NCBI GenBank assembly: GCA_000934665.2
Contig: KZ538421.1
Location: 1-64,000 of the forward strand
Direction: 5' to 3'
Length of the DNA stretch: 64,000 bases
From: Catajapyx aquilonaris
Lineage: Eukaryota
A model generated the notes under the pieces. It was not told where the DNA came from, did no database searches, and was given only the letters and a program-made list of their open reading frames with translations. The position numbers and the translations under genes were made by a program. Positions 1 through 23,975 of the stretch are shown one piece after another. Position 1 is the stretch's first letter. Each line of letters opens with the position of its first letter.

Positions 1-745
1 GATGTAAACAAGTCGAGGGTGGCACAGTTGGTAACGTGGTTACGGAACTGGCAGTCAGCGCGGCGCTGCCAGATCGTCGCGTTCTTCCTGCGAGTTCTTA
101 TTGTTCATGGAGGGGGGTATTTTTCGTCCCAAAGTTTGGCCAAACCAAGACTGCCACACTCGTGCCCTTTCACACACTTACGGTAATTCTCCCTAAAAAC
201 CTCCTCATGGGCTCGAATCTCACAGGTACCGACATGGAAAGGAGTGATTGCGGGTCAAAATCAAAAACTGTACCTGGCCGCAGCGGCCGCAAATATCGCC
301 CCAGGAGAAAAATAAACACACCATCTCAAAGTGCAACTCCAGATACTCCAGTTTCATGCCGATACCTCCATATTTGCGACCGTGACAGCGAGAGGAAGAA
401 GTGTCAAACTCACAGGCCGGGCCGCGACGGGCTCCCCGCAACAATGAGACGCGGAGCCTAGAGCGAGCTCTTAATGGAAAATATCACTATGCTGTGAATA
501 TGTAGTGGGTTCCAAATGAAATGCCACAGTAGTTACTAACTTTTTGGCTCACCCACCTTGGCCCTCCATAACAAATGTCATAATTTTGTTGTGCAGTATT
601 GACGGCTTATTAAGGTGGCCTAAACTGATGTGACATTATGCCCAGAACTAGAGCAAGGAGTAGGCAGCATAGTGAAAGGAGTCAGTTCCTAAGTTGACTG
701 TCAACCAATTTCACAATTATTGAAATTTTGACTTGCAATCCTTAA

Positions 746-900
746 AGGGACACTCCACTCAAAATACAAGTTGTGTTCTAAAAATCGGGCGAGGAATCCT
801 GATTCCGAGGGTATAAGCAATTTTTCTGGGAGACGAACGGTAAGGGCAGGGCGAGAGGTCAGATTCGTAAAATAATAGTCTCCCGCCAGCGAGTGGAGAC
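746..900. mobile_element. Kolobok-type MITE family A, left end only
   Basis: TTAA followed by AGGGACACTCCACTCAAAATACAAG, as in the complete copies. Right boundary approximate. Confidence 0.7.
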
Positions 901-1618
901 GCCTGGCAGGGACGCCAACGCCTCGTGGCGGCCAGACGGATCACCACACATCAGTAGCTATTTTCTAGCACTACTAGCAGCTACAAGTAACTGCTAATGA
1001 CAAGTCTGTCGCCTAGGCCAGTGCATGCCACACCTAATTGTCTAACAACAAAATGACTAATGGTGTAGCCTGGTAGACACCAATAGTGCTTCATATGGGA
1101 ATTAGTCATTGAAATAGAGCCATCTTCTGGGCCCTAACACATATTAGCTGCTATTCTGAAACGCGTCGCGGTTATTCTAAGATGGCGCCGCCCAGTGATT
1201 CGTTCCGGGACGGNCGCTTAGTTGGCGGAGACAAATATGACGTCACGAGTGGTGTGGAAAAATTCCTGTCGCTCGTTACAAACGTTGCGACGTCCATTTG
1301 TGAAGTAGGCTTGATGCGAGTCCTGTGAAAACTTAGTATTCTGCTTCTAAGCGAGAGAAAAAGGAAAGAAAAAAGTTGTTCATTAGAATGAGAGTCACTT
1401 TGCTCGGCCCCCACTTGCGCGCCTTCAGCGCGGAGACCATAATTCATCAGGTTACAGAATGTTTAGGATTTTGAGGACCTAAAAGTTCATTTACAACTGA
1501 ACGAGTTAAGAATTGCAAGGGTTGCAGAAGGAGTCATCATAGTGACTTTTTGTGAATTTTTTTTTAAAGTTGTGGATTTTGAAGCGTTTATTCTGAACTT
1601 TCATAATTTTTTTTCCAG

Positions 1619-4600
1619 TTCAACCCATTTCATGCGATGTTGAGGCTGCTGTAAAACTTACAAGAACAAACAGCAGGGACCAACAGAAACATGAGAGCAA
1701 CGCCAGGGTGAGGAACAAGGACACAAATGGAGCAAGTTACATAGAAGAGCCAGACAATGGTGGTTTGGTCAGCAACAGCCAGTTGATTGAAGCAAGTTCT
1801 GACATTGGAGCAGATGGAAAAGACTCGAAGCTGCACAAAAAATGGAAACACAAGAATAGTGACTTTATTGATACAGATGAACTATGTGAGAGGAAGAGAA
1901 GGAAGGTGGAGGTTACTCAGAATTCTGCTGTTGAAAAAGATACAGTTGAAGAATCGGAAAATTATGACAAGACACCTTCAATTCAAGAAGATATTGTGAA
2001 ATCTGGAGGTGATGGAGAAAAGAAAACTGAAGGGGTGAATGAGGCTTCTATAATCACAGCTGCAATGCAACAATTAACAAATCTGAACAATTTGCAGAAT
2101 ATTCGAACACGTGAAAAAGAAAAGCGAGTTGCCCAACAAGAAAGTAGTGTGGAAATCAAACGTACAGTTCAGGTTACTGATGACAGTAGGGAGTCCACAA
2201 ATGGATTTGTTACTTCCTCTAATGGGCATAAACTGCCTATTTGCAGTGTTATAGAGGTCATGAACAATCTATTAATGAAAGAGAAAGCAAAGCAGGCGAG
2301 TGCAGCCCTCACAGGAGTGAGAAAAGGTTCCACAATTGCCAGGGTCACAAATGAAGTAATCCAATTACTAGAAATAGAATGTACTCTGATTGCCAACCGG
2401 ATGCGAATTGAAAAGGCAGCTAATGGTGAAAACCCGGAAATGGAACCAGTCACAAATACATCGGAAGATGTATCACCAGTTACTGACATCCCACCATCTG
2501 GTCCTCTGAATGGAACTTTGCATGAGAGTGGATCATTGACATTAGATGATGAACCTACAGATGAAGCTGTTGCCAGAAAGCCTCATCGCAAGCGTAAACA
2601 TAGGGATAGCGAGAGGTCTAATACTAAGAAGCTCAGTCGAGGTGAACCAGAAGTTCAATTAGAAAAGATGAAGGTTTGGGATAATGGAGAGAAAAGTCAT
2701 GGGGTCAATCCTGAAAAGAATGTGGAAGCAGTGAAGGAAAAGCACCACTCACATACAAAGCATACAAGCAGAGAGAACCTTACAGGTGATACAATGAATG
2801 CCCTAATAGATGAGAAGTCAGAAATAGATGGTGGAGCTGTGTCAAGTCTGAGAAGTGGTAATGATTTCCAGAATGTGGGTATCAAAATGTATGAGAATAC
2901 CAGCAATTTGACTGATCAAGATGCTGAATCTAGGACAGAGAAGACTTGCAAGAGTAATTCTGATGTGAAAAGTGTACATGCAGAAACTAGGACAAATGAT
3001 GATGATTTCCATGTAATCAGAAGTGATGCAGATGTTGTTGCAGAGAAGACTTGTGCACAAAATTACACTAATACTCACACTTCGGCATCAGATGGAGGCA
3101 TTGTGAAAAGTTCTGCAGAAAAGCATCATCGTATGTCCAAGTCAAGGTCTCATGAAGAGATGGATTCAAAAAGTAGAGAAGCCCACAAGAGAGCTCACAG
3201 GAAAGCCCACAAGAAAGCCCACAAGAAAGAAAAGAAGATCGACAAGAACAATGATGGTGTAGATTTGAAGGTGCATGAACAAGAACAAGAGAGATGCAGC
3301 AGTCAGAACACTGTTTTGGTGGTTCAAGATGCAGGAAAGAAGGCGAAGCAAGGGACAGAAATAATGGTTCAAGAACAGGAAGAAAAGATATGCAGCAGTA
3401 AAAAGAAGACTGTATCTGGGATACAAGAATCAGAGAAGAAAATTGAGGGAAATGCAGGAGGGAAGGTACAAGGACATGAAGAGAAAAGTAGCAGCACACA
3501 TAAGAGGACACTTTCTGAGGTTAGAGATTCAGGGCAGACTGTGAAGGAGAAGACAGTGGTGAAGGTGCCTAATCATGAAAAGCGAGTCAGCATTCATAAG
3601 ACGACTGTTTCTGAGGTTCAAGATTCTGGGAAGACTGTGAAGGAAAATGAGAAGAAAAGCAGTCATCATAAGGAGATTGCTCCTGAGGTTCAAGATTCTG
3701 TTAAGAAGGCGAAGAAAACCAGTCATGATAAGATGATTGGTCCTGAGGTTCAAGGTTGTGTCAAGAAGGCGAAGAAAACCAGTCATGATAAGCTCATTGC
3801 TCGTGAGGTTCAAGATTCTGTTAAGAAGGCAAAGAAAACCAGTCATGATAAGATGGCTGCTTCTGAGGTTCAAGGTTGTGTCAAGAAGGCAAAGAAAACA
3901 AGTCATGATAAGCTGATTGCTCCTGAGGTTCAAGATTCTGTTAAGAAGGCAAAGAAAACCAGTCATGATAAGATGATTGCTCCTGAGGTTCAAGATTCTG
4001 TTACGAAGGTGAAGAAAAGCAGTCATCATAAGACGATTGTTTCTGAGGTTCAAGATTCTGGGAAGACAATAAAGGAAAATCGGGAGAAGAAAGAAAATGA
4101 AAGGGGAGACAGTCATCAAGAGAAGATTGTTTCTGAGGTTCCAGATTCTGAGTTGAAGAAGAAGGAAATTGAAGAGAAGATCATCAGTCATCAGGAGAAG
4201 AATGTTGTTGAGGTTCCAGACTCTGGATTGAAGATGATGGAAAATGAAGAGAAGAGAAGCAGTCATCGTAAGAAAAATGTTTCTGAGGTTCAAGATTGTG
4301 GGAAGAAAAAGGAGCATGGAGAGAAGAAAAGCAGCCACCGTGAGAATGTTTCTGAGGTTCCAGACTCTGGGTTGAAAAAGAAGGTAAATGAAGAGGAGAT
4401 TAACAGTCATCATGTGAAGAATGTTTCTGAGGTTCCTGACTCTGGGTTGAAGATGAATGAAAATGAGGAGAAGAGACAAGGTCATTGGAAGAAGAATGTT
4501 TCTGAGGTTCAAGATTGTGGGAAGAAAAAGCATGGAGAGAAGAGAAGCAGCCACCATGAGAATGTTTCTGAGGTTTCAGACTCTGGGTTGAATATGAGAG

Positions 4601-6325
4601 AAAATGAGATGAGACGTGGTCATCACAAGAAGAATGTTTCTGAGGTTGAAGATTCTGGGAAGAAAAAGGAACATAGAGAGAAGAGAAGCAGCCACCATAA
4701 GAATGTTTCTGAGGTTCCAGATTCTGGATTGAAGAAGAAGGAAAATGAAGAGAAGATTAGCAGTCATAAGAAGAATGTTTCTGAAGCTCAAGAGTCTGGA
4801 AAGAAAATGGAGCATGGAGAGAAGAGAAGCAGCCATCATAGGAATGTTTCTGAGGTTCCAGATTCTGGGTTGAAGAAGGACGAAAATGAGGAAAAGATAA
4901 GCAGTCATCATAGGAAGAATGTTTCTGAGGTTCAAGATTCGGGGAAGAAAAAGGAGCATAGAGAGAAGAGAAGCAGCCACCACAAGAATGTTTCTGAGGT
5001 TCCAGACTCTGGGTTGAAGGAAAATGAAGAGAAGATAAGCTGTCATCACGAGGAGAATGTTTCTGAGTTTCAAGATTCTGGGAAGAAAAAGGAGGAGGGA
5101 GAGAAGAGAAGTAGCCACCATAAGAGTGTTTCTGAGGTTGAAGATTCTGGGAAGAAAAAGGAACATAAAGAGAAGAGAAGCAGCCACCATAAGAATGTTT
5201 CTGAGGTTCCAGATGCTGGGTTGAAGAAGAAGGAAAATGAAGAGAAGATGAGCAGTCATAAGAAGAATGTTTCTGAAGTTCAAGAGTCTGGGAAGAAAAT
5301 GGAGCATGGAGAGAGGAGAAGCAGCCATCATAGGAATGTTTCTGAGGTTCCAGATTCTGGGTTGAAGAAGGACGAAAATGAGAAGATAAGCAGTCGTCAT
5401 AGGAAGAATGTTTCTGAGGTTCAAGATTCTGGGAAGAAAAAGGAGCATAGAGAGAAGAGAAGCAGCCACCATAAGAAGTCTGTTTCTGAGATTCAAGATT
5501 CTAAGAAGGTGAAGGAAGATCCACCAGCAAAGATTCAAGAACCTGAAGAAAAGAGAAGCAGCATTCAGAAGCCTGTTTCTGAGGTTGAAGATTTAGGGAA
5601 GAAGGCAAAGGCACATGCAGTAGTGAAGGTGCATGAACATAGGAAGGGAATTAGCTCTCAGAAGTCTCTTTCTGAGGTTCAGGAATTAGGGAAGAGGGTT
5701 AAGGTAGATGCAGTGGAAAAAGTCCCAGAACATGAAAAGAGAAGCAGGGACCAAGATTCAGGAAAGGAGGAGAAGGAACATGCAGCAGTGAAGGTGCATG
5801 AACATGAAAGGAGAAGCCACATTCAGAAGATTACAGTTTCTGAGGTTCAACATGCTGAGAAGAAAGTGAAGGAAGATATGTCAGCAAATGTTCATGTGCA
5901 TAATGAAAAGAGAGATGGCATTCAAAAGAAGTCTGCTTCTGAGATTCAAAATTCAGGGAAGAAAGCAAAGGAAGGTGTCACAATAAAGGTGTGTGAACAT
6001 GAAGAAACAAGTAGTTCTCAAAAAAAGAATGTCTCTGGGAGTCAAGATCCGGAGAAGAAGGTGAACGAGGATGACAAAAGGTCGGCCAAAGCAAGTCCAA
6101 CAATATCACAGAGTTATTTTTCAAAGAATAGTGACCAAGTGAGACATGTTCGTTATCCATTTCAAAAAACGGAGAAGAAGGGATTGAACTCAAGTGCAGA
6201 CCCAGGGGAAAAAAAAGTGCCTGTGAAAGGAAGCATGGAAGAGCACATGGCTGAAAGACGGACACATGTTGCCATGGTGCACAATTATTTTCTGCGAGAG
6301 CGCTTTATGAATGGAAACTCTGACG
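1619..6325 (+). CDS. Dnmt3: DNMT3-like giant exon (4707 nt): low-complexity K/E/S/H-rich region with tandem repeats
   Basis: Acceptor ttttttccag ends at 1618. The frame is open from 1621 and includes ORF 1708..6372. Donor G|GTATGA at 6325/6326 is in phase with the ADD exon. Confidence 0.85.
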
Positions 6326-9300
6326 GTATGATATGCCTGCATACATGTCTTGCATGTCAATGTTTCTTGTAGGGTGGGGAGCACCAAACTGACTAAACCA
6401 AATCTGTTTGGATTGTGCTTGTTATTAACCCCTTCGCTGCCAGATAGGCCTGAACCACATAGATTTCGGCCTATGCCTACTCCGAAGATATGGACCAGAT
6501 ATTTTACCAATAATAACAGCTATACTTACCAGATCTGGGAAAATACTATGAATGTGTCTGGAACAATTTTACTCCTCTAGAAGTCCCTAAATTAATTTCC
6601 AATAAAGGTCCATAAAAACTCGAAATTGGAGTACTGCTGGCCAACTCTTAGGTTGATTTGATTATGAAATGCGTGACAATATGCGGAATAACAAGCTTGA
6701 AAACCATGCCAGACGAATTTGCTGAAATCGCCGTACTTTGCGAGAAATAAATTAATACATATTTTCGGCTCTCTGGCACTTTGGAAAGCTACAATTTGGG
6801 GAGTTTTCTGAAGTGTCAAAAGCCGCAAATAAGTATCAATTTATTTACTACTAATATTATTATAATAAATTAATACTTATTTGCGGGTTTTTGGCACTTC
6901 GGAAAATTCACATTTGGGAGTTTTCCGAAGTGTCAAAAAGCCGCAAATGATTATTAATTTATTTCTCGCAAAGTACGATGATTTTAGTAAATTAATCTGG
7001 CATGGTTCTCAAGGTTATTCCGCATATTTTCACGCATTTCATAATTAAATCAGCCTAACAGTTGGTCAGCAGTACTCTAATTTCGAGTTTTTATAGCCGT
7101 GTTTTTGGAATTTAATTTAGAGACTCCTAGACGAGTAAAATTGTTCCAGACACATTCATAATGTTTTCCCAGATCTGGTAAGTATAGTGTTGTCCGATTG
7201 ATTGCACTGGTGTAGCCAGTGTACACTCGTGCAGAAAAAAGCGTCCGATTCACCGGGAGCAGCGTGTCCGATTCGCCAGTGTAACTGCACCAGTGCAAGC
7301 GGGGGGCTGCACTCGCTGCACCAGTGGAGAAGGTGGGGCAGGCGGTGTAAGGCGCGAAGACGGGCTGGCAAGATGGCGGCGGATGGAGGGTGAGTGGAGG
7401 TGTCCGATTCGAGGCCCCAGTGCTGGGTCACACTCGCTGCACTGTGACGTCACCTCCCTACACAGAGTGTAGCCGGTGCAGTGTCAATCGGACAACACTT
7501 ATATCTGTTATCATTGGTAAAATATCTTGTCCGTAACTTCGGAGTAGGTGTAAGCCGAAATCTTTGTGGTTCTGGCCTATCTGGAAGCGAAGGGGTTAAT
7601 TGTTGACAAAAGCTAGCATTATTGACTTTGGTGCTCCCTGCCCTAATAGCTTTTTTATGTCCCTATTTCTAAAGGTTATGGTGCTATTTAAATTTTATGT
7701 TGCAGTGGGGGCAACAGACCTGTTGCGATCCTACAGGGTGGACATAGAGGACGTATGCATTGCATGCAGGACACTTGCATCATTACCATATGATTACCAT
7801 CCATTCTTTACTGGAGGAATCTGTGACAAATGCAAGAAGAAGTTGGTTAAGACCCTGTATGTGTGTGGAGAGGATGGGACCAGTGTAAGTGTATTATTGT
7901 GTTTCCCTAAGTTTTAAGCTGCCCCAAATCGCGAGTTTTGGACTACAAAATCATATACAAATAAACCGGATTAACCAGATAAACGTGAATGATATCATCT
8001 TTTTGCGACCGCTGGAAAAAAACTTCAACAACAACAAAAAAAAATCCGACCTGGACCGGCAAATTTTGGCATACATAGTTGCCCCCAAACCTCCTCAAGA
8101 GATTCCACCCTAAAATTAGTGCAAAAGATGATTCAATAGGTTTAAAATAATGTTCGTAAATGACAATTAGCGGTTGGCGGGAATCTGCGCACTTCAACGC
8201 CGGCCTCTGGCTGGCTGGACGGCGCATGCTCCCCGCGCCTTTTGAATGGCTGAATGTTTACATTCATGAGGGAGTGTGTTTATGTATCACTTCTGCACGC
8301 CTGGCTGGCCTGTGACATAATTCATGCTATGTGCTTGTGTACTGCTTTGTTCAGAGGTGCCAAGGCTACATACCGATAATTTTTTGTCAAGCAGGCAGAG
8401 TGACACAGAAATGGAGTAGGCGCGAATCATACCCCTGCGCCACCTTGTTTGCGCGTTTAAGACTTCACATCTCCGTATCGTATGAGAGGAGGGTCACATA
8501 GATGGCCTCAGGCTCAAGCCTGGACACTATACGGTCTTATTGACTAGTGTTTTCAAGTCTTGTCCCCCAAGTCCCAAAGAAAGAGAATTTTTTGCAGATA
8601 CTTGCAAATGCGCGAAAAAACCACCCGCCTTATTAGGGTTAAAAATAATATTTGGTTTGCCCACAATGTGGGACATACGTAAATTACCTTACTATAACAT
8701 CAGGCCTGCCTAATAATAATTACGGGTATGGCAGTGTTTATTGTAATCCTCATTCCTGCCTGATCAATAGTGTCACTTTCTATATTATAATGGGGACCTT
8801 CAATATTGTCACATTGTCTGGGAACTTAACTCTGCTTACAACATGATAACACCTTAAATTTAAATGAAAAAGGTAAGGTCGCATGGAGGGACGTACATGT
8901 GCCAGGATGATATATTATACCTTGTGCTGGAAGCACCTTATCTCGGTAACTATGCGTCGGAGACCCATGTTGCATATACTTAAAGTGATCGCCTAGAACC
9001 CCTCTATCATTTCCAAAAGCCTCCGTAGGTTAAATTTTGAACCCTGTATAACTTGTTGTTAATGATATGCAAGCGATTTCGTGTGAATTGGCTCAACTTG
9101 AGCTGATATGGTATTGGCAATGGAACATTGAATTTGATGTTTTGAGTGTACAGCATTGATTTTCTTTTTACAGCGTCATTGTATCATCTGCAGCGAAGCT
9201 AAGCAAGTGATTACTTGCTCAAAACGCACTTGCAACAGGTTAGTATCTTTCATGCTGTATGCTGATTTTTTTTGTAAAACATTCTGATTTTACCCCTAGT

Positions 9301-12300
9301 ACATTTTGCAAGAAGTGTTTGGAAGCCTTGGCAGGCCCAGAGGAAGTGGAACGAATCTTGGAAAGTAACATTGGATTATGGAGGTGCTATATGTGCAGGG
9401 ATAACTATGAACCTTTGGGCTTTCTAGCCAGACGTCGCGGATGGCAGCGTTTCGTAAGGAAATTACCTAACAAAAGTACTGTTTTGTGGCATGTAACTTA
9501 AGTATATTTTTTCAGGTGGTCAAGCTGTACCAACCTTATTACTACATCAGTTATCACAATATTACTTATAAGATGAGAGAGCTACGAGTATTGTCTGTAT
9601 TTGACGGGATTGGAACAGGTAAAGTAAAAGCTGTGTAAATTCTGAGTGTGTGATGAGTGTCAGTTGATATCGAAACTTAAAAGGCAATAAGATTACTTTG
9701 ACAAAGTAAATGGTCATATCTGGGATGTAAAGTTGTGTACAAAACCACAGGGTATCGCCAGCAAAACTGATTACCTGATCGGGGGGGNNTTTTAAAAATA
9801 GCGCCCTAGGTGATAATCACTGGATCTGGCACCATTGGTTTCACTCTCGATTCATGCACAAGAGGGGGCTGAACCGTGAGAGACATAAAATGCTAGACCT
9901 GCATCGCGAGAGAGGGCATTTACCGCCTCATATGCTATGCATGATATGATGTCATCATATTGCAACAGCTGTGCTTTTTTTTAAAGGCGGCTTCCACCCC
10001 TCGGAATAATCCAAGATAATTACATGGTTTACCACTCTTTTTGATGAATTACGAAAACAAATGTCCGTTAAAAAAAATTAAAGGCCCAGTTTGAAAGGAG
10101 GTAATGTGAGCCACCAGGTACCAAAAATGGCGGCTAAGGTGGCAAGTAGGCACTGCCTAGAGCTCGGAGCAGTCTGCCCGGCCAATTAGGAGCGAGGACA
10201 CTTTCACGGCTGCAATGTACCTGCAAAATTCGCAGTTTCAGGCCTGCCTGTCCCAGAATATTTGCCTGGTGCCCCACATGGCAATAAATTGCGGAATAAA
10301 CACAGATTCACATAGGAAACAGCACACCACACTCCCTCACAATGGCAGAAGAACTTCTGTATCATAAATGATACAGGTCAACTTATCAGGCAGGACCTCC
10401 CAGGTTGCCCTGTGTTTGTATGGCAGAGGTGTCTTATTTCAGGTGACAGGGGAAACTCCTGGATTTTCATCTAGCTGTGTGCCAAATTTTTTAAACATTT
10501 AGGTGCCATACTTAATGAGATGGGGCCCCATTTGGTAGGGGGCTGAATGGCTGATATCTGGAGAGGGGTGGCTGGGTCGGGGCTAACCAGGAGCACATAA
10601 ACATGTCGAAGTGTACCAAAAGGAAAATGCAGATAGTGGGTTTTGGAATTGTTGGACTGAATTGTATCGATGCATTTCTTTGATGGGCTGCAGTTATTAA
10701 TTCTTTAATGAACAAAATTAAGGTAATGGTGTATATTTGTGACTGATAAATGTGTTCTCAAGAGAAAAATGTTGTGTGGTAGAAGTGGTTTTTTATGCTC
10801 TTCAATGTGTTGAACATTTTAAAGGGACACTCCACTCAAAATACAAGTTGGGCTCTAAAAATCGGGCAAAAAATCCTGACTCCGAGGGTATAAGCAGTTT
10901 TTCTGAGAGACGAACGGTAAGGCCAGGGCGAAAGCCGGAAGTGTGTCGTTCGAAAACCGCGCTCAAACGGGCCCGGTGCTGGTGGCGGCGCCACCCCAAG
11001 GGTGACGTTGGATAGTAGCGCCGCCCTTCCCAACGGCGACTTGGATAAGTTGCCTGCGGGCATGGGGATCCGTGGGGATCTGGTTGTGTCCGAAGCCAAC
11101 TTCCCCTAGTGCCCGTTGGGAAGGGCGGCGCTACTATCCAACGTCGCCTAACTTGGCCAGGTGGACAGGCGGCGCCACTCTCGAACAGACCTCGAATTTT
11201 TTCCGACTTTCGTCTCTTCCCCTGACATTACCGTTCGTCTCAGAGATAAACGGATGGTATCACCGGAATCAGGATTCTTTGCCTGATTTTTACAGATCAA
11301 CTTGTATTTTGAGTGGAGTGTCCCTTTAAGTGAAGTTTGCAAATTTGCAGGTTATTGTTGTCTTTCATTGATGTAATTAGTATCAATAGTAATTATGCTT
11401 TTTACTCTCAGGGCTCTACGTCTTGGATAAATTAGGAATGAAGGTTGAGAGGTATGTGGCTGCTGAGAATGACTTCGATGCCAAACAGGTTGCTACCAAG
11501 AAGTATGGAGGGAGAATCAAGCATCTGAAATCTGTGGAGTCTCTGAGCAGTGCTGACCTAGATAATCTGGGACAGATTGACGTAGTTATTGGGAATATGC
11601 CTTACACAGCTGCAGAAACACCTCATGTTACAGCTGGTAAGTGTTTGTCTAGTTTTTAGTGAAAATTCAGGATTGTAGGTCTGGGAAGTGGAAAAATTAT
11701 GTGTTCTTGAAGGGCTGCGTGTTCTTATTGGTATTACTCACTACCAAACTAACTCTTTCTACCCTCTTAAATTTTGACAATTTTTGGATTTTCTAATTCT
11801 GCTTGGCCTATAGTGTAGTGCAAACATCATCTCTGCTGATCTCCATGTTAGCAGGGTCAAAATACAAGCCAAAAGGCGATATTCTAAAGCCACAACACCT
11901 GCATCCTGTCATGGGTCGCTGCATCTGATACCAGTGATATATAAATGATTTATTAAACTTGATTCATAAATTGCTGCATAAAATTGATTTTGAAGCGTGT
12001 GAGGTGATATTATACTCGTTTTTGCCACCCTAGAGCTCGCTAGAGTCACGGTGACCAGGGACCTGCGACCCGCGACCAGCTGCTAGTGTTGTGGCATCGG
12101 AATATCACCTTTTGCCTTGTGCTTTGACATGAAAATTAGCAGCAGAGGTGATGTTTGCACAACACTATAGGCCAAGCAGAATTAGAAAATCCAAAAAATT
12201 TTAAAATTTATGAGGGTAAAAAGAGTTAGTTTGGTGGTCAGTATCAGTATTTTGCCTTATATGAAGTGTAATGTTTTCCTCGAGCGAGCCAATTGTGGAT

Positions 12301-15300
12301 TAACCAAATCCATGAGTCTTTGCACCAAAAGAAATAGGAGAAGTAAGTCTGGTGGGTATGGTACTCGGGATGATTGGCATAGATCCTGTTGAAGTTCCTT
12401 GTCATCCAGCTGTTCACAAACTGTTAGAAAATATGCAATTATGGTGTAGCAGCCACATTTCCAAGAAATGCAATTGGACTGATGATTCTTTGGCCAGACA
12501 TCTACTCCCCTGCCCCTCCACTTCCTGTGTGCAGTGGTTCGTCATTCAGAAGAATTCTTGACTTTACAAACCCCATAGAATTTCTGGTTTGAAGGAAAAT
12601 GTTCCACTTCTGTGAAGGCAACAGTGAGAAATTCTGAGGCACCTCCAAGAACAAGGATATACCTAACAGACAATAGGGATCACTTCAACACACCATGTGG
12701 ATTTAAGCATAAAACAGCGTATATAGTCATTAAAATTATCACATTTTGCCCAACTATTCACAATAAGACTGACAATGGATTGCCCTGTATTTGTAATCTT
12801 TTTTTATGTGCTTCACAGAAATCCTAAGCTTGTTCCATGAATTCCATCGCATATTACGATATGTGGAGATACGTAACAATGGTCATCATGTTTACTGGAT
12901 GTTTGAGTCCTTGACTATGGAAAAGAAGGAACAAGACATCATGAGCAGGTGAGCCAGTCAGGGGTAAGATATGGTAAGGGATGTGGTGGTGAGGTATGTG
13001 TTGTGGTGTGTTACTATATTAAAATTCAATGACTCTCGCAGCTTGAAAAATGGAGGTTGAAAAATGATACTCTGCTGTTCAAGCAACCCGGAATAGTCCT
13101 GCCTTTGGTTGCAGGAGTTGTATTCATGACTTTTACGTTCTTGTTTCTAGTTCCATTCCCCCATTCAATCCTAGTGTTGTATTTGCTGGCATTTGATGTT
13201 ATTCAACATGGTGCATTCTTCCTGCCATCCAATAATGGCTTTTCCAGGAGTCTGCAAGTGAATTTTAATTTCACTGCAATAGGTCAAGAAACTGTAGTTA
13301 CCTGAGAGGTGATGACGATGCATGCTTTGAAAGATGCTATTTATTTACTTTACCCCATGCATTACAACTTTCTAGTCACTGGAAAATTAGTGTAAGAGCA
13401 GCAACCTTAGACAAAATTGTTCGTATTAGTAAATATTGCAGTTAAATTACATGGCAAATATGTGGCGAGGGTATCAAAGCAAGCGCTCTTGTAGCTTAGT
13501 GGCAGAGCAAGCACTTCATTCAAGTGTTGACCTGGGTTCGATTCCTGGCGGGGGCATGCTATACGATTTACTCCGCCACATTTTGCTGTCTTGCACATTA
13601 AATTATGCAACTGAGCACTTCTCTTGGTGTGGAAGTGTATGGAAATCATGTAGATACGAACAGTTTTGCCATGTTGCTGTGTCGACCAAAATTTTGGTTT
13701 TATACACAATTTCTGAGCCACGGACAGGTTTCCTTGTAAGGGGGAATTTTTCTGCTATCTCATCACCATTTGCATGATAACTTGTGGCTATCATGTTTCT
13801 TATTGCTTCTATGGGTGGGTGGATGTTTTATGATGGGGTGAGATAGATGGTCATGAATTCATATCACGAAAGCAGCAACACATGATTATCATGTAGGATG
13901 ATTTTTTTATCTGGAATAATTAAATATCAAAATTCTCTACATCTCTTTTGGATAGGAGGCATTATTACACCATGCTGTGGAAATTAAGCTCTGGTGATTT
14001 CCCATGTGAATATGCTAGTTATACAGGGTGTTCCAATTGAAATGTCCACAATGGTTATAGATTTTTTTCAGGCATTGAGCTACTTATTTTTAAGCAGTTA
14101 CTTTTGAATAGTTGTGGTTATCAAAAGTATTATCTCCTAATATTGGGGTGAATTGATGAATATAATCTAGCTCCAAATTGCAATGAATTTCTGATTGGGA
14201 CTGGCCCATTGGTACACATGGCATCGAACATCAATGATGTAGATTTTTTTTTTTTATTATTATTATTTTTTATTTATTTTTTTTTTGCAGGCCAGATCTG
14301 CAGAAGATGTTAAAAGGATGGGTCAGTGTAATCCATAGTTAGTGGCTAATACATTTGATAAAAATGTTAAAACACAATTATCATACCTCTAATGATTACA
14401 ATTATTTCGCTACATCTAGGTCTGCATGGCAATTTGCATTACGTTTTTTCTTAGAATATACTACAGTGTGTCACACGTATGCAAGTCCTTTTAGTTTTGG
14501 GAAATTTCGCTTGGCGCTGTAATTTTTTTGTCACTGCTTGTGCCCTGATCCAAGTGCCCAATTATATAGAATCTGCTATATTTGACCCTACCTGGGAATT
14601 TTGTGCATCTGGATTGGACCTCAACAAGCTACAAAAAAATAACAGCTTCAGGTGAAATTTGTGATGACTAAAAGGATCTGGATACCTTATATGTGCAAGT
14701 TTTCTTTCAGGGACAGCTCAAGTTAATATGAACAATGCATGTTTTATACCTGCTGTAGGACAGGCTATAACTGCTAGGAGTGTCTAAGTGCAGCCAAAGT
14801 CTCATTGTTGTCCACGTTGTCACCAGTTGATGCCACCACATTGCTCACCTACGGTGTACACTTGTTTTGGACCAAGGAAGCCATTGTTATCCAGATGAGA
14901 TTGTAGAAGAAACACCTGGAATAGCTGGGGTTCATGATGCAATGAACAAGGATTACAGTCGAATCCCTCTATAACGAAAATCCGCTTATAACGAAAGAAA
15001 ATTTGTGACCGTCAGAGGCCCCATATAAACCCATGTTAAAAATATCCGCTTTTTAACGAAAGGATTAAATTTTTCCCTCCATCAGTCCCACCTCTCCGCT
15101 GAAAAAGGCAGAAGTGGGCAAATTGGGCCATAAATCACCATCTGTGTGTTCGGGATTCAACCTTTTTTCACACATTCAGTCCAAAAGTTGATAATTTGGG
15201 GTCCTAATGGAAGGGAAAGGATTCTCTGGGGGGGAGGGGGGGGGCTGTCACGCAGTGACTCAGAGCTGCCCACTAGATTTATTGCTAGCACGTGCCCCCC

Positions 15301-17978
15301 CCCCCCCCNCCCCCCCCCCCCCCCAAGGGAAGGAGGCAGGTGGTTAAAACCTGGGAATATTCAAGGGAGATAATTATGACCTTTCCTTATCATCTTTCCC
15401 CACCATTTCCTCTTTCCCCCCTTGGGTCTGCTACTTGCTGGAGATTATGGGGGGCATATTATGCCGGCGCCCAGGGTTAGCTGATGGACCGAATTGCTGT
15501 AGCTTATTGTTGTCGACTTTGCGCAGTGCTTTGTGATGTAATCTAATTTAGCGCGGAAGAATTTTTTAACTATTTTTCCCGCTACCAGGGCTTAATATAA
15601 CGCCTAAATATAGAAAAAAGTTAGGTTTAAACGCGGTTTTTTATATAACGAATTTCGCATATAACGAAAGAAAATTTGGTTCCCTTCAATTTCGTTATAG
15701 AGGGATTCGACTGTATTCGAAAAATATTCTGGGTTTTTGGTATTGAGCCTAGCATACCATGTGGCGTTGCATTCCAGGGAGTGCGTTAATAAACCAGGTG
15801 TAAATGAGAAGTTCCTGAATGAATGAGTGAACCTGGCTGGAGCTTCTAAATTTATGCCAGATCATGGCAACATTTTAATTTCTGTTATTAACGTGTATTT
15901 TCTGTGAAAGGAGACGAAAATCCATTCCATTTCTGCATTGGGCAGGTTCTGTTATATTCATCAAAGAGTACATTGCTTGTCCTATGTGTATGGCTATTCC
16001 CAGAAAAAATTCCGCAATGGATAGGTTCCCGCTATGCTCAGGGTCTGTTATGGACAGGTTTCACTATACTTGATGACCTTGCAAGTAGTGTCATGTTGTT
16101 ATACAGTGCTGGACATATTAGCCGTCGCTGAATGTTTTTTTCCGGCGGCGGCGGCGTTACCTGGCAACCCTGTCCGGCGGGCCAATTCAAACATCAGCCC
16201 ATGGAGAGCGCTTCCATTGTTGCCACTGTTTACAAATCGAGTGAGTGAAGGCCCATACACACAGGCCAATCGACGGTTTTGGTTTTTGGTTTTTGGTCGC
16301 GTTGACGCCGCGGACCAATCATGACTCATGTAAACAAGTGCAACCCATTGTTTACAACTTGTTTACATGAGTCATGATTGGTCCGCGGCGTCAACGCGAC
16401 CAAAAACCAGAACCGTCGACGGCCTGTGTGTATGGGCCTTCACGCGGACGACCCAGCGATGGGTCTCTTCTGCCTGCGCACTCACTCACTCGATTTGTAA
16501 ACAGTGGCAACAATGGAAGCGCTCTCCATGGGCTGATGTTTGAACTGGCCCGCCGGACAGGGTTGCCAGGTAACGCCGCCGCCGTCGCTGCCGAAAAAAA
16601 ACATTAAGCGACGGCTAATTTGTCTAGCACTGTAAAGGGAGGTAAATTTTGTGGTTTCCTCCTTTCTTGAATATTATTAGGTGTTTTATTTGAACTGCTA
16701 AATAATTATTGCCTCCAAATTCCTTAAGTAAAGGGGCCAAAACTTACCCCTGGTACAAGTGAAGTACAAGTGTGAACACATCCTCATTAATGTTAATAAG
16801 ACAGGAGTCAGGTACGTTCCAACTTCATCTCTGTTGGCAAGGCTGAAGTATTTATTTGTCAATGACATGAAACCTATCATGTGTAAAGGAGGTAAAACAT
16901 GCATCAGTATACAGGCATGCTGGTAGAGATGTGCATTTTGTAAAATCTGGTCACCACTATTTACCAGCATGCTGCTATTTGTGGGGTAATATGGATATGG
17001 TAAGCAATAATTAGGTTGCTTACCTGCAAGATATTGCATGCATTTTTATTATTTGATTGAAGATACATTGAAGCTCGTAGCGAGAGCAAAAGGGAAGGGA
17101 AGAAGGGAGAGCACAGCAGTGCTTGTTGTAGTAGTGCACCACTGGACATCATGCTCTTGCTTTGCAACAATCTGGGATTAAATTCAGGAGGAAGGCTAGG
17201 AGGGTGATGCTTTCCTCTGTACACAACAGCATACAAATCGGCTGTCCTAAGGAGAAGTGCTGTACTATGGGCGCCAAAAGAATTGACCGGAGTTGATGGG
17301 TATATAGCGCCATATATAGCCTACCCATCAACACCGGGCAATTCTTTTGCCGCCCATAGTACCTACAATAGTTGTACTGTAAGAACGAAGGTCGTGTGGG
17401 CACTTCTTTTGTCCTTGCTGGTTTTGTAGATACGGCATTTCTCCTGGGATGGAAGAAGTGCTAGTGTACGTGAGGAAGTGAAGTAATGTCTTTTTGCATT
17501 TAGGTTCCTGGAAAGTGAGCCTGTCAATCTGGATGCACAGTTGATTCCCAATACCTACTTTGGACGCTCATTTTGGGGCAACATCCCTGGCATCCAGGCA
17601 ACTCTGGACACAGAAAAGTTGGCACAACGACTGTCACTTCAGGAGTTTCTAGTTGGAGGTCCCACTTCCGGGGCGAATGCTGAAGACAACCTCATGACGC
17701 TCTCTACACCAGGACCATCAACTTCGACTCATGGCAATCCCGAAGGGTTCTCCTCGCATGCTACTTCAACATTCAAGTCCAGCGCCCTTTATCCTATGCA
17801 GTGGTTCAGTGAGATGGTGGATGCCTATGGCATGAATAGCCAGTTTGAACACATGGATGGGCTGTCTGTGGGAGTTGTCAGGAAACTTCTTCGAAGAGCC
17901 TCCAGCGCATTGATCATGGCGAATGTCATGCGTACTCTTACACAGTTCTTTCCATGTGTGAAGGAGGAGAAAGAGTAG
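1619..17978 (+). CDS. Dnmt3: DNMT3-like protein: repeat-rich N-terminus, ADD domain and degenerate C5-methyltransferase domain; 8 visible coding exons; 5' end unresolved
   Basis: join(1619..6325,7706..7884,9174..9238,9300..9453,9516..9618,11412..11636,12819..12948,17504..17978). All introns are GT-AG with matching phases, giving one open frame. The translation matches DNMT3 ADD (IEDVCIAC..HPFFTGGICDKC..CIIC..WRCYMC..RRRGW) and MTase motifs (LRVLSVFDGIGTG, IDVVIG, YWMFE, SRFLESEPV, FWGNIPG). Confidence 0.92.
3601..5500 (+). repeat. Coding minisatellite: 60-bp units (SHDKMIAPEVQDSVKKAKKT) followed by alternating 60-66-bp units with core NVSEV(Q/P)DSG
   Basis: Consecutive 60-nt lines 3661..4020 are near-identical. 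The core tttctgaggttc(a/c)agattctg recurs throughout. Confidence 0.92.
6429..7595. mobile_element. piggyBac-type foldback MITE with a nested insertion at 7186..7499
   Basis: TTAA-CCCC...GGGG-TTAA with long inverted arms. The nested element has TIR AGTGTTGTCCGATTGA and a TAT duplication. Confidence 0.82.
7706..7884 (+). CDS. Dnmt3: DNMT3-like exon: ADD GATA-like finger
   Basis: tgcag| GATDLLRSYRVDIEDVCIACRTLASLPYDYHPFFTGGICDKCKKKLVKTLYVCGEDGTS |gtaagt. Confidence 0.92.
7926..8638. mobile_element. 5'-truncated copy of the 18547..19477 piggyBac-type MITE
   Basis: Colinear similarity (aaatcgcga.ttttggactacaaaatc ... cttattagggttaa). Confidence 0.75.
9174..9238 (+). CDS. Dnmt3: DNMT3-like exon: ADD PHD finger, part 1
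   Basis: tttacag| RHCIICSEAKQVITCSKRTCN |gttagt. Confidence 0.9.
9300..9453 (+). CDS. Dnmt3: DNMT3-like exon: ADD PHD finger, part 2
   Basis: cctag| TFCKKCLEALAGPEEVERILESNIGLWRCYMCRDNYEPLGFLARRRGWQRF |gtaagg. Confidence 0.9.
9516..9618 (+). CDS. Dnmt3: DNMT3-like exon: linker and MTase motif I
   Basis: tttcag| VVKLYQPYYYISYHNITYKMRELRVLSVFDGIGT |gtaaag. Confidence 0.9.
10823..11325. mobile_element. Kolobok-type MITE family A
   Basis: TTAA TSD; TIR AGGGACACTCCACTCAAAATACAAGTTG at both ends; internal inverted repeat. Confidence 0.85.
11412..11636 (+). CDS. Dnmt3: DNMT3-like exon: MTase motifs II-IV, catalytic PC replaced by PY
   Basis: ctcag| GLYVLDKLGMKVERYVAAENDFDAKQVATKKYGGRIKHLKSVESLSSADLDNLGQIDVVIGNMPYTAAETPHVTA |gtaagt. 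Confidence 0.92.
11735..12243. mobile_element. Foldback MITE with long TIRs
   Basis: ctaccaaactaactcttt..ggattttctaattctgcttggcctatagtg is mirrored at 12150..12243. Confidence 0.7.
12819..12948 (+). CDS. Dnmt3: DNMT3-like exon: MTase motifs V-VI (FENV -> FESL)
   Basis: cacag| EILSLFHEFHRILRYVEIRNNGHHVYWMFESLTMEKKEQDIMS |gtgagc. Confidence 0.9.
13485..13556 (+). pseudogene. tRNA-like sequence
   Basis: A box tagcttagtgg, B box ggttcgattcc, G-U-rich acceptor stem gctcttg/cgggggc, non-canonical anticodon loop. Confidence 0.5.
14956..15713. mobile_element. Tc1/mariner (pogo/Tigger-like) MITE
   Basis: TA-CAGTCGAATCCCTCTATAACGAA...TTCGTTATAGAGGGATTCGACTG-TA. Confidence 0.85.
16104..16632. mobile_element. 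Foldback MITE (TA TSD) containing an inner palindromic element at about 16250..16438
   Basis: TA-CAGTGCTGGACATATTAGCCGTCGCT...AGCGACGGCTAATTTGTCTAGCACTG-TA with near-perfect arms. Confidence 0.85.
17504..17978 (+). CDS. Dnmt3: DNMT3-like last coding exon: degenerate motifs VIII-X
   Basis: tttag| RFLESEPVNLDAQLIPNTYFGRSFWGNIPG...LSLQEFL...WFSEMVDAYGM...RKLLRRASSALIMANVMRTLTQFFPCVKEEKE*. Confidence 0.9.
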
Positions 17979-18546
17979 TAAGTGCACAAATTGTTGCTGT
18001 TTTTATTTTTATTCACATCAGTTTGCAATTGAGTATTTGATACTGTTTGCCATACATCCATGACGAATTAACTGTTGAAAGGAATAGGAACAGCAAAGGA
18101 ATTTTTAAAAGCATAAGTTATATCTGTTAGGCCCAAACCCTGAAAATGGCCATAGAGCAAAAAAAGCGACCATTTCATGGAATGCTCTTCTCAAAATGGC
18201 CAGATAGCAAAGTGGTCGTTTTTAAAACAGCCAAAGCAGTTTGCGGAGAGAGAGAGAGACGAAAATTCCACTCATTGTCTGCAGGCCTCTCGATAAAGCC
18301 TAATACTACAGTATTATTTATATAAACGCATCGTTCCAGTAATTTATGATTTTTATTACTTCTTATGGTACATCATATGGGAGTCCCTGTAGTATTTTAT
18401 TTCCACTTTTCTTTGGTGTGAACAACATGAAGGGTTGTGACTGAGGTTAATTCAAGTCAAAAGTAAATGCATAGGTGCCCCAAGATCAAAAGTAGTGCAT
18501 CAACATTTTTCTAGAACAAAATCTGATTGCTGCTTGCCTGTTTTAA

Positions 18547-19887: not shown

Positions 19888-19921
19888 ATACCATCAGTTG
19901 GAGGAGCAACTGGACAAATAT
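19888..19921 (+). other. Candidate 34-nt 3' exon of the DNMT3-like gene
   Basis: Strong acceptor tttttcttcattatttctag and donor GTGAGT. The upstream donor GTAAGT at 17978 overlaps the stop, so splicing gives TA|A. Confidence 0.45.
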
Positions 19922-21014
19922 GTGAGTACCATTTGAACCTCAATGGCTGTTGACACTAGAATGCATCAAAAGTCCACCTTTGTTGCAAACAATCAATCCG
20001 TAACACTCCAGTGGGTGATGTGCTCTGGGGCTTGATACACTAAATTCAACTCGGATCAGGTGGTAACATTTTGGCTGACACCAAGGCTACGTGACTTTCA
20101 CACCACATTGCTAGTCGTTGTGGTCCAGTTTAAGGGTGGCTTTTTGGCTGGTAGGGTTTTTGGTAACTGTCCAAGGTTAATTACACTGTACGACAAGGTT
20201 TTTTTTTCTCGGGTTATGATATGCGTTTTCAATAAGTGTTTTCGCTGCTGATTCCAAATGTGTAATTAGAATTGTGCTGTCAGGCACAGTTATTGAGATA
20301 TACTGCATTTACTAATAGACTATCTATTAGTAAATGCAGTATATCTCAAAAACTGTGCCTGACAGCACAATTATAAGTACACATTTGGAATCATGGTGAA
20401 AGGTACTACAGGAATCACTATTCACAACTTCAGAAAGAGCAAAAAGGTTTTTTTTTTTAAGTAGAAGAGTGAAATTAACGGTATATCTGCAAAACATATC
20501 TATTATTTTCTCGCGAACCATGCTTGACCCAGGCCTCAAACATACTGAACCTTATGTCGGTCACAACTAGTGTCACCAAAAAATATGACTTATGTACCCC
20601 AAATACATCACTAATTGTTTAGGTCACAATTCTTGGGCATGTGACTGAGCAAGTGACCAATGAAATGCTATAAAAAGTTATTTTTTCATTTTAGAGAAAC
20701 ACTAATTCCACAGGAGCATTCTCCTGGTGTTTCCCTTTCTTTTGATATATATGTTCATTGGGTTTTGACCACTTCCACTAACCGAAAAAAATTCTCCAAA
20801 AGGGCCTCATTTTCACCCATTTCCGTATATATTTGCGATTTTTTTCCTCCTCATGGTATTGGCCAATATGACCGAAACTTTATAAGCAGCATTAAGGAGT
20901 AGTTGAGTACATCTGCGATTATTTTCACCAAGATCCGAGACTATCTAGCAACATTTAGGCCCACTTGATTCGGTAAGACCCCTAGTAAACAGTTCCAAAC
21001 TTGAAAACGATACA

Positions 21015-22644: not shown

Positions 22645-23975
22645 ATTATTATTAGAATTCTGCATTTACTACTCTTTGGGCTTTGTTCTGAGAAAATGGA
22701 TTGAAGCTGTAAGTAGTGACGTGGATATTTTTTCTTTGCAGTCGGAATGAAGATTTTGGGAAGTTTCACGGAGAAGAATCAGAGGAATCTTAAGTGTATG
22801 TAACTATCCGTTCCCTTGTGATTATATGTGGATGATTTATGTATACTATATGAGAACTGAGAAATATTGAATCATAATGCAATGTTTTGTGGTACATTGT
22901 ACTGACACAAGCAGAAGGAAGGTGCATGGTAAGACAGTAACATCGCAACACCTCTGGTGAAATGTTCGTACCCACAAAAACTGTAACATAGGCTGACTGA
23001 GGAATGTGGTCAGCATTGGCATGAACCTTTCAATTGACAGGATGCCAATATACTTTTTAATAACATGCACATTTCATATGTTTGTGACAGTACAAAACGA
23101 ATCACATTTACCCTGGAAATTTAAAGTTAACCTGTGCCAAATATTAATTGGGCATTGTTATTATTTACAAGAAAGATTTAAAATGTGCCGAGTAATATAT
23201 TTTCCATAAAGCATTGCATTGGTGTTACAAACTGTTTTTATTTTATATGCAGATGTGAATTAAGGGGGTGCTGAAGTGAAAAACTTTGCAAGCAACTATG
23301 TTGCAAAGCTGCAAGTATACCATTATATGGGATGGCAGTCTTGGGGAAATGACCTGAAAAAGTTACTTCAAAAAGTATATGTTATATGTTACGTATGTTA
23401 ATATATGATATAAGATATAACAAAAAAGTTTTACTCGGATATGTCTCAATGGGATGGAATGAAACTGTTGTATTTATGTAACAGTGGCACACTGTGTATT
23501 AATGTGCATGTGGAGTCTTGAGAGATGGAGGTAGACCGAGGTAACCGGTTGATCCATGTGTGTTGATGGATAATACCTGTATTGCTCCAATTGATAGGTC
23601 CAGCGCATTTCAGGAGTCTCATGTTGTTGCTATTTTTCCAGCTCATGTACAAAATTAATGAACAATCTTGAGTGGCCACTACTCGAGCCAAGAGTGACTG
23701 ATAGGAGCGACTGCTAGGCACGTCCGGCTGGCGTGAAGTTTGGGGGGCCATGCCATGTTACCATCTATTGTAATTACAGCCCAGTGATTTAAAAAAAGTT
23801 CTTAAGTGAATACGTACTAAATCTATTTTGCTAGTTAACATGTTCTTTATAAAAAGACCTACAAATTTGAATTGTGTTTCTTAACATTCTGTGTCATTAA
23901 TATTTATATTCCTTAATATGATAGTGTAGAAACTTGATGTGCATGCATTTAACACTCTTGGAATGGCCTACTATA

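What the first reader, a model, noticed from the sequence alone, without database searches (positions are those of the whole stretch)
1619..6325. No PWWP domain; a 4.7-kb exon of charged, His-rich repeats is fused to the ADD domain
Seen: about 1570 codons in one exon, spliced in phase to the ADD exon, with no PWWP-like aromatic core (Trp is almost absent). It is dominated by K/E/S/H repeats and basic NLS-like clusters (RKRRKV, KPHRKRKHR, HKRAHRKAHKKAHKK). Established: canonical DNMT3 has PWWP (H3K36me2/3 reader) directly upstream of ADD, and DNMT3L lacks it but is small. Inference: a new architecture in which a very long disordered polyampholyte may bind DNA, act as a scaffold, or drive condensates.
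Basis: partly seen in the sequence, partly recalled or inferred. Interest (0 to 1): 0.72.

Follow-up and report, generated by a model that had tools for sequence, protein, structure and literature searches.

The report
Dead DNMT3 with repeat-expanded linker exon
This arthropod gene is a spliced, catalytically dead copy of the enzyme that starts DNA methylation; it has lost the histone-mark-binding half of one reader domain and stretched a floppy linker to about 1,570 amino acids by tandem repeats, making it an odd variant of a helper-protein type already known from mammals, water fleas and aphids.

Summary
The 4,707-nt exon is real, open, symmetric (phase 1-1) and joined to the ADD exon in contigs of one public run. 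(1) The methyltransferase domain is dead: catalytic Cys710 is Tyr, and other catalytic, FF- and RD-interface residues are changed, under purifying selection (dN/dS about 0.3). (2) The window starts at a contig break. The abutting contig C4804 carries four exons homologous to the C-terminal half of the PWWP region; the two exons with the PWWP core were not found. The genome holds one canonical DNMT3 and five dead paralogues. Two keep a full PWWP followed by the same exon at 638-662 codons with one copy of the repeat unit, so the giant exon is a family-specific PWWP-ADD linker expanded by about 34 tandem units, not a foreign fusion. It looks disordered, near-neutral and charge-mixed; nothing supports condensates or DNA binding. 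Best reading: a non-catalytic, ADD-guided chromatin adaptor like DNMT3L, Daphnia DNMT3.1 or aphid DNMT3x. The scan noted dead DNMT3 paralogues before on other pieces of this genome. New variant of a known kind; interest 0.45.

The parts
1..474 (.). Right half of a ~970-bp palindromic TTAA-flanked element inside the intron before the giant exon; its left half ends contig G000:C4804, which carries the upstream exons
   Evidence: arms 98.4% alike (next best 96.9% among 14 arms compared); the two contig ends rebuild the spacer of a complete copy with no gap
1619..6325 (+). Giant linker exon, 4,707 nt, phase 1-1, 1,568 whole codons
   Evidence: joint to 7706 in X1 contigs
1621..3300 (+). Non-repetitive first 560 codons, collinear with the big exon of paralogues C315 and C3567 (33-35% identity, short conserved islands)
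   Evidence: dN/dS 0.49
1891..1908 (+). Basic cluster RKRRKV, NLS-like; aligns with a basic cluster in C315 (inferred NLS, untested)
3179..3229 (+). 12-nt tandem repeat (4.2 copies) giving HKRAHRKAHKKAHKK; paralogues have one copy, so this 'NLS' is a local micro-expansion
3412..6052 (+). About 34 copies of a 20-33-codon K/E/S/H unit (60-nt array 3651-4060, 66-75-nt array 4110-5502, longer units to ~6050), amplified from a unit present once in C315 and C3567
   Evidence: 19 of 19 gaps between units are multiples of 3
6235..6309 (+). Conserved helical end of the exon, the only stretch AlphaFold2 models with pLDDT above 70
7706..7884 (+). ADD exon 1 (GATA-like finger)
   Evidence: Pfam PF17980 E 1.8e-12
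9174..9238 (+). ADD exon 2
9300..9453 (+). ADD exon 3 (PHD finger); all 12 zinc-ligand Cys of ADD kept
   Evidence: Pfam PF21255 E 2.3e-06
9516..9618 (+). Pseudo-methyltransferase exon 1, motif I (FDG) intact
11412..11636 (+). Pseudo-methyltransferase exon 2: motif II Glu kept; catalytic Cys replaced by Tyr (codon 11603-11605)
   Evidence: aligns to DNMT3A 648-710
12819..12948 (+). Pseudo-methyltransferase exon 3: FF-interface Phe732 is His; motif VI ENV is ESL
   Evidence: joint to 17504 in X1
17504..17978 (+). Last coding exon: Arg790 to Phe, RD-interface and motif X residues changed; stop
   Evidence: aligns to DNMT3A 771-912

Best explanation
The gene encodes a ~2,110-residue non-catalytic DNMT3 paralogue: [C-terminal remnant of the PWWP region, ~100 aa, on contig C4804] - [1,568-aa disordered linker] - [intact ADD] - [pseudo-methyltransferase]. 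It arose in a lineage-restricted expansion (five dead copies beside one active DNMT3). The family ancestor had already lost catalysis and gained a ~640-codon linker exon between PWWP and ADD; this copy then lost the two exons of the PWWP core and amplified one ~24-codon unit about 34 times by in-frame tandem duplication. Most likely mechanism (inferred): a nuclear chromatin adaptor or transcriptional co-regulator that docks on unmethylated H3K4 tails through ADD, uses the dead methyltransferase fold and short conserved motifs at the two ends of the linker to bind partners, is no longer steered by H3K36 methylation, and carries the repeat block as a long soluble spacer whose length is tolerated rather than required. 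Shown: gene anatomy, residue losses, constraint, two splice joints. Inferred: contig join, start codon, disorder, H3 binding, partners.
For: Cys710 is Tyr in 5 of 5 dead copies and Cys in 100 of 101 reference DNMT3s (1 gap); Asn711, Asn757, Arg790, Gly890, Trp893 also changed. dN/dS over 6 paralogue pairs: pseudo-MTase 0.26-0.35, ADD 0.14-0.39; big exon 0.34-0.53 over 4 pairs. All 12 ADD Cys and Asp531 kept. Canonical DNMT3 with PWWP, ADD, PCN, ENV on C9. Full PWWP exons directly upstream of the same big exon in C315 and C3567. C4804 abuts the window and its four exons join in frame, 2,111 aa without a stop; an X1 contig matches 1618-2831 and runs 149 letters further upstream off the window. 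PWWP core exon B profile scores 41 and 47 bits on C315 and C3567 but at most 9 bits on C4804, which has no N; genome-wide searches find family exons A and B only on C315 and C3567. Linker: FCR 0.38, net charge +0.02, kappa 0.16 as in a shuffle, aromatics 1.2%; 799 of 908 modelled residues pLDDT below 50. Precedent: Daphnia DNMT3.1 knockout changes gene expression and its authors doubt a role in methylation (PMC8016896, passages).
Against: No function was tested. The letters of the 149-nt overhang were not shown, so the C4804 join rests on DNA evidence and a single matching base. The 5' end is unresolved: the in-frame ATG at the end of a 24-nt candidate exon (C4804:12911-12934) is a guess from splice-site scores. 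Splice evidence is one run of unrecorded kind, possibly from the same source as the assembly. The AlphaFold2 model is single-sequence, so low confidence is weak evidence of disorder. His-rich, well-kept unit cores could be functional rather than tolerated.
Confidence: 0.6

Rival explanations
1. True DNMT3L analogue: the dead domain binds the active DNMT3 on C9 and stimulates or targets de novo methylation, with the long linker as a reach-extending tether.
For: Dead catalysis, loss of RD-interface residues His873, Asp876, Arg885, kept Phe772 and kept ADD; an active partner exists; proposed for Daphnia DNMT3.1 and aphid DNMT3x; DNMT3L uses the FF interface (PMC11401227 passage).
Against: The Phe that aligns with DNMT3L Phe261 / DNMT3A Phe732 is His in 4 of 5 copies and Lys in the fifth, against Phe in 99 and Tyr in 2 of 101 references. 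Binding was not tested.
Confidence: 0.3
2. The repeat block is the selected innovation: a His/Lys/Glu-rich multivalent region that binds nucleic acid, metal or partners, or drives condensates, and replaces PWWP in targeting.
For: The frame is kept over 4.7 kb and 19 of 19 inter-unit gaps are multiples of 3; a second paralogue (C5676) has independently grown different repeats in a 927-codon exon at the same position; His reaches 8% in the core array and the 60-nt array is net basic, +0.10; DNMT3C precedent of PWWP loss with a diversifying N-terminus (PMC7306680 passages).
Against: Whole exon near neutral, charges not blocky (kappa 0.14 in the main array, 0.135 shuffled), aromatics 0.4%; dN/dS among unit heads is about 0.73-0.75, close to neutral drift; frame keeping is expected of any exon upstream of needed domains; two paralogues do with one unit.
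Confidence: 0.15
3. Decaying or neutral duplicate: a transcribed copy on its way to a pseudogene, with PWWP loss and repeat growth as signs of relaxed selection.
For: Lost PWWP core; dN/dS in pairs with this copy is a little higher for the pseudo-MTase (0.31-0.35) than among the others (0.26-0.28); sister C1653 has a frameshift near the start of its big exon and no PWWP exons in 24 kb upstream.
Against: No stop or frameshift in 2,111 codons, canonical splice sites, dN/dS far below 1 at dS 0.6-0.9, spliced contigs.
Confidence: 0.08
4. The PWWP core is present but missing from the assembly or too diverged to detect, so the protein has a complete PWWP like C315 and C3567.
For: The assembly is fragmented (20,583 contigs); the exon-A profile is weak even on positives (7-10 bits); no transcript of the 5' end was read.
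Against: C4804 runs 13 kb without N upstream of the first remnant exon and holds an eIF2-beta-like exon on the other strand at its far end; the exon-B profile separates positives (41-47 bits) from C4804 (9 bits; background up to 11); retained neighbouring exons are 41-43% identical to paralogues and were found easily.
Confidence: 0.1

Closest known systems
Daphnia magna DNMT3.1 (PMC8016896 and PMC11963560, passages read)
   Same: Arthropod DNMT3 paralogue with ADD and a diverged, non-catalytic MTase domain beside an active DNMT3.
   Different: DNMT3.1 keeps PWWP and lacks five of six MTase motifs; here motifs I and II are kept, the PWWP core is lost, a 1,568-aa linker is inserted, and there are five dead copies while the active enzyme keeps PWWP. 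No orthology shown.
Aphid DNMT3x (bioRxiv 10.1101/2024.02.14.579807, abstract and passages read)
   Same: Lineage-specific duplicate lacking residues needed for activity, proposed to act like DNMT3L.
   Different: Has PWWP and ADD; single paralogue from an aphid-lineage duplication; no giant linker mentioned in the passages read.
Mammalian DNMT3L (PDB 2pv0, 4u7p)
   Same: ADD plus dead MTase-like domain, no functional PWWP, RD interface not kept.
   Different: 386 aa against about 2,110; DNMT3L keeps the FF-interface Phe261, which is His here; this protein keeps motif I and a full-length MTase fold and shares ADD exon sizes with the arthropod enzyme on C9, so the likeness is most likely convergent.
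Rodent DNMT3C (PMC7306680 and PMC11401227, passages read)
   Same: Duplicate that lost PWWP-coding exons and has a fast-evolving N-terminal region.
   Different: DNMT3C is catalytically active; here only the core half of the PWWP region is lost and catalysis is dead.
Canonical arthropod DNMT3 (C9 of this genome; Strigamia, Limulus, Tachypleus as nearest database hits at 62-63%)
   Same: Same ADD exon sizes (179, 65, 154 nt), same last intron, a phase 1-1 exon just before ADD.
   Different: That exon is 147 nt in C9; PWWP-core-to-ADD distance is median 174 and at most 285 residues in 124 reference proteins, against 802 and 828 in C315 and C3567.

Membership tests
DNMT3 family (by descent) | ADD domain followed by a C5-MTase-type domain most similar to DNMT3 | tested here: met
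   Pfam PF17980, PF21255; PDB best hits DNMT3A/B/C; all inspected top hits of the profile search are DNMT3s
Active de novo DNMT3 (DNMT3A/B type) | Catalytic Pro-Cys-Asn in motif IV | tested here: not met
   Pro-Tyr-Thr; Tyr aligns with Cys710
Active de novo DNMT3 (DNMT3A/B type) | Motif VI ENV, motif VIII RxR, motif X with Trp893 | tested here: not met
   ESL; Arg790 to Phe; Trp893 to Ser
Active de novo DNMT3 (DNMT3A/B type) | SAM-binding motifs I and II | tested here: met
   Phe640-Asp-Gly642 and Glu664 kept; Asp686 is Ser
Active de novo DNMT3 (DNMT3A/B type) | PWWP domain with its core upstream of ADD | tested here: not met
   Core exons not found in window 1-1618, on C4804 or elsewhere in the assembly; C-terminal exons present; 5' transcript not read
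DNMT3L (orthologue) | Descent from the vertebrate DNMT3L gene | tested here: inconclusive
   No DNMT3L sequence was in the tree; the five dead copies form one long-branch group of unresolved position (quick tree); exon structure matches the arthropod enzyme, which argues for separate origin
DNMT3L-like cofactor (function) | No catalytic cysteine, ADD kept | tested here: met
DNMT3L-like cofactor (function) | FF-interface phenylalanines for binding active DNMT3 | tested here: inconclusive
   Phe772 kept, Phe732 is His
DNMT3L-like cofactor (function) | Binds and stimulates an active DNMT3; binds H3K4me0 | not testable with these tools
   Needs biochemistry; the four-exon domain could not be handed to the complex predictor as one chain
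Daphnia DNMT3.1 / aphid DNMT3x clades | Orthology | tested here: inconclusive
   A profile of the five last exons found 56 proteins at E up to 0.001 among 1.84 billion representatives, none below 1e-10, so no close relative outside this genome; the two named proteins were not compared directly

The most novel reading that the evidence does not exclude
This arthropod has turned DNMT3 into a five-member family of pseudo-enzyme adaptors that differ in reader content (full PWWP in two, a remnant in this one, none found in two) and in independently repeat-expanded linkers. With the FF-interface Phe replaced in all five, they would work through a new interface, and the hypervariable His/Lys/Glu repeat block of this copy would be the targeting module that replaced H3K36 reading, for example in transposon silencing: an invertebrate counterpart of DNMT3L and DNMT3C rolled into one expanding family.
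Probability: 0.15. Interest if true: 0.75.

Novelty: new variant of a known kind. Interest (0 to 1): 0.45.

Why it matters
Non-catalytic DNMT3s are known as single genes in mammals, Daphnia and aphids. Five constrained dead copies beside one active enzyme, with stepwise PWWP loss and a family-specific linker three to nine times the usual PWWP-ADD distance, would be another independent origin and a natural series for asking what DNMT3 proteins do without catalysis and how much of their targeting needs PWWP. The giant repeat exon itself is a clear case of in-frame tandem expansion of a disordered linker; it matters beyond that only if the repeats prove functional. The case also shows that 'domain absent' calls at contig ends need the neighbouring contig.

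Tried and rejected
Pfam PF00855 over the genome gave 22 matches, among DNMT3 loci only C9; it missed the intact PWWPs of C315 and C3567 because an intron splits the motif, so that blank alone was rejected as evidence. Protein database searches with the last exon (longer proteins) and with the first 403 codons of the giant exon found nothing; the Atlas gave no usable hit; Pfam gave no credible family for the giant exon (one chance-level match) and none for three paralogue big exons or two remnant exons. No RNA holder was listed for the stretch; the one listed run is of unrecorded kind; parts of the gene without listed contig cover say nothing. The key-residue table was mis-numbered (reference isoform with an odd C-terminus) and was discarded and redone; the careful tree did not finish, only the quick tree is used. 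The regular-expression count left 15 of 153 proteins unparsed and is not used as evidence of other dead DNMT3s. The long antisense ORFs at 3529-5592 were taken as by-products of the repeats. C5676 and C1653 were considered as partners for the orphan C4804 exons and rejected: neither shares the element arm, and C1653 is far closer to C315 than the remnant exons are. The first exon of the eIF2-beta-like neighbour could not be placed, so a head-to-head promoter at C4804 11.5-11.9 kb remains a guess from CpG content. No complex prediction was sent. Literature searches that found no description of this family or linker: (open-access library only; supplements not read, and the supplementary species tables of PMC8821070 could list these copies).
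Full report
OBSERVATION. The + strand has one open frame from 1597 to 6372. With the acceptor at 1619 and the donor at 6325 the exon is 4,707 nt, begins and ends in phase 1, and splices in frame to seven further exons (7706-7884, 9174-9238, 9300-9453, 9516-9618, 11412-11636, 12819-12948, 17504-17978), all with AG/GT ends, giving 2,011 codons and one final stop. Composition and Trp scarcity are as described (K 15.0, E 12.3, S 11.6, H 5.8%; 3 Trp in 1,591). Contigs of one public run, X1, whose kind is not on record, carry the joints 6325/7706 and 12948/17504, both GT..AG, and listed pieces match 1618-2831, 2930-3704, 3946-4305 and 5448-6324 without a changed letter (8 of 172 pieces were shown). 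The exon is therefore real and joined to ADD; this is one run and may share its source with the assembly.

The exons after ADD (Pfam PF17980, PF21255) align to DNMT3A/B/C. The residue facing catalytic Cys710 is Tyr (codon 11603-11605). In an alignment with 101 reference DNMT3s (those holding the needed motifs), Cys710 is Cys in 100 and a gap in 1; this gene also has Asn711Thr, Asn757Ser, Arg790Phe, Gly890Arg, Trp893Ser, the RD-interface changes His873Gln, Asp876His, Arg885Val and the FF-interface change Phe732His, while motif I, Glu664, Glu756, Phe772, Arg792, Asp531 and all 12 ADD cysteines are kept. The roles given to these residues are recalled from DNMT3A work; the FF and RD interfaces are named in PMC11401227 (passages), and His faces DNMT3L Phe261 (weak alignment, E about 1).

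A FAMILY. The genome, whose canonical DNMT3 is nearest to centipede and chelicerate enzymes at 62-63%, holds six ADD loci and six matches to the last exon. C9 is canonical, with PWWP, PCN, ENV and motif X. C315, C3567, C1653 and C3203 (probably the 3' part of the C5676 gene; link not shown) all have Tyr for the catalytic Cys and group together with this gene on a long branch (quick tree). ADD exon sizes (179, 65, 154 nt) are the same as in C9. dN/dS is 0.26-0.35 for the pseudo-MTase and 0.14-0.39 for ADD over six pairs (Nei-Gojobori). A profile of the five last exons found no close relative among 1.84 billion representatives (56 hits, none below 1e-10). Three earlier notes of this scan report dead DNMT3 paralogues on other pieces of this genome; they agree but are not independent support.

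THE GIANT EXON IS THE FAMILY'S LINKER EXON, EXPANDED. C315 and C3567 have a phase 1-1 exon of 638 and 662 codons at the same place, collinear with the first 560 and the last ~100 codons here, with dN/dS 0.34-0.53. They hold one copy of the unit that occurs about 34 times here (loose motif count; alignment). Units are 60 to 99 nt (one interval of 261), and 19 of 19 gaps in 18 unit-to-unit alignments are multiples of 3. The HKRAH cluster is a 12-nt micro-repeat present once in paralogues. C5676 has grown other repeats in a 927-codon exon at the same position. In 124 reference proteins with both domains the PWWP-core-to-ADD distance is median 174, maximum 285; in C315 and C3567 it is 802 and 828. 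In the same references with ADD showed no PWWP core, many of them partial, so lack of PWWP is not rare in databases.

PWWP. The window starts at base 1 of contig C766. C315 and C3567 have complete PWWP exons 0.85-1.45 kb before their big exon, which the Pfam genome search had missed. A search with the last of these exons found an orphan copy at the end of contig C4804. C4804 ends in the left arm of a palindromic TTAA element and the window begins in the right arm: the arms are 98.4% alike, against at most 96.9% for the other pairs involving them among 14 arms compared (of 48 listed matches), and the two ends rebuild the spacer of a complete copy base to base. Four C4804 exons (13101-13199, 14785-14823, 14886-14921, 14977-15100) are 41-43% identical to the paralogues' C-terminal PWWP-region exons and join the giant exon in frame across a 2,186-nt intron: 2,111 codons, no stop. 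An X1 contig aligns from 1618, one base before the acceptor, and has 149 more letters that lie off the window; the last C4804 exon ends in the matching base, but those letters were not shown. The two exons with the PWWP core were not found: local alignment gave noise-level scores, a profile of exon B scored 41 and 47 bits on held-out C315 and C3567 but 9 on C4804 (background up to 11; the exon-A profile was weak even on positives), and genome-wide searches found exon A only on C315 and C3567 and exon B only on these and C9. A candidate 24-nt exon ending in an in-frame ATG would give 2,112 residues; this start is a guess.

HOW IT PROBABLY WORKS. The linker has 38% charged residues, net charge +0.02, charge mixing equal to a shuffle (kappa 0.16) and 1.2% aromatics; only the 60-nt array is clearly basic. 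A single-sequence AlphaFold2 model of its last 908 residues has 799 below pLDDT 50 and one confident helix at the conserved exon end. By general knowledge such chains are expanded and soluble, poor drivers of condensates and poor DNA binders. I favour a nuclear, non-catalytic adaptor that reads H3 tails through ADD and binds partners through the dead fold and short conserved linker motifs, with the repeat block as a tolerated spacer (0.6). A functional repeat module (0.15), a hidden full PWWP (0.1) and decay (0.08) are less likely. All functional steps are inference.

COMPARISON AND NOVELTY. Dead DNMT3 paralogues are described in Daphnia (PMC8016896, PMC11963560; passages) and aphids (bioRxiv 10.1101/2024.02.14.579807; abstract and passages); PWWP loss in DNMT3C (PMC7306680; passages) and Daphnia DNMT3.2. 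A survey of ecdysozoan DNMTs states that it scored presence, not paralogues (PMC8821070; passages; supplements not read). Searches found no account of a five-copy dead family or of such a linker. Verdict: new variant of a known kind. The anatomy is unusual and well supported; the function is untested. Interest 0.45.

Noticed in passing
window 17976-17984, 19889-19922, 22742-22795: In all five dead paralogues a splice donor sits at or right after the stop codon. Here the donor appears to split the stop (TA|), and a candidate next exon near 19889 begins with A, which would complete TAA; further short candidate 3' UTR exons follow. Another acceptor could read through.
   Followed up: partly
G000:C1653:24471-44747: Paralogue with no PWWP exon found in 24 kb upstream and a frameshift near the start of its big exon, but an in-frame ATG 39 nt into the exon gives an intact 925-aa PWWP-less protein with dN/dS about 0.3.
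   Followed up: partly
G000:C5676:5474-8257 and 9718-9897; G000:C3203: Most diverged paralogue: 927-codon exon with its own acidic and K/E/G repeats before ADD; its 3' part is probably on C3203; no PWWP exon found in the assembly.
   Followed up: partly
G000:C315:57705-57838; C3567:3529-3675; C4804:14785-14921: The family has two 36-39-nt mini-exons, each starting with a Cys-x-Cys-like motif similar to the start of the following exon, apparently duplicated from it and absent from canonical C9.
   Followed up: no
window 1-474 and genome-wide: Abundant ~970-bp palindromic TTAA-flanked element (48 listed matches of 305 candidates); many contigs break at its centre, so its arms can be used to rejoin contigs.
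   Followed up: yes
window 6370-7645: The intron after the giant exon is almost wholly nested inverted repeats, which could pair in the pre-mRNA.
   Followed up: no
G000:C4804:722-1033 (minus strand): Exon of an eIF2-beta-like gene facing away from the DNMT3-like gene (E 0.04); its first exon was not placed.
   Followed up: partly
window 36628-37062 (minus), with further likely exons near 27750-27870 and 30170-30330: Tektin-family gene downstream on the other strand (Pfam PF03148, E 3e-08).
   Followed up: no
window 1619-6325: CpG observed/expected is 0.25 in the giant exon against 0.68 for the window, as expected of a gene body methylated in the germ line.
   Followed up: no
G000:C9:218453-219985 (minus): Intronless 511-codon aldehyde-dehydrogenase-like ORF (succinate-semialdehyde dehydrogenase-like by recall) near the canonical DNMT3.
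   Followed up: no
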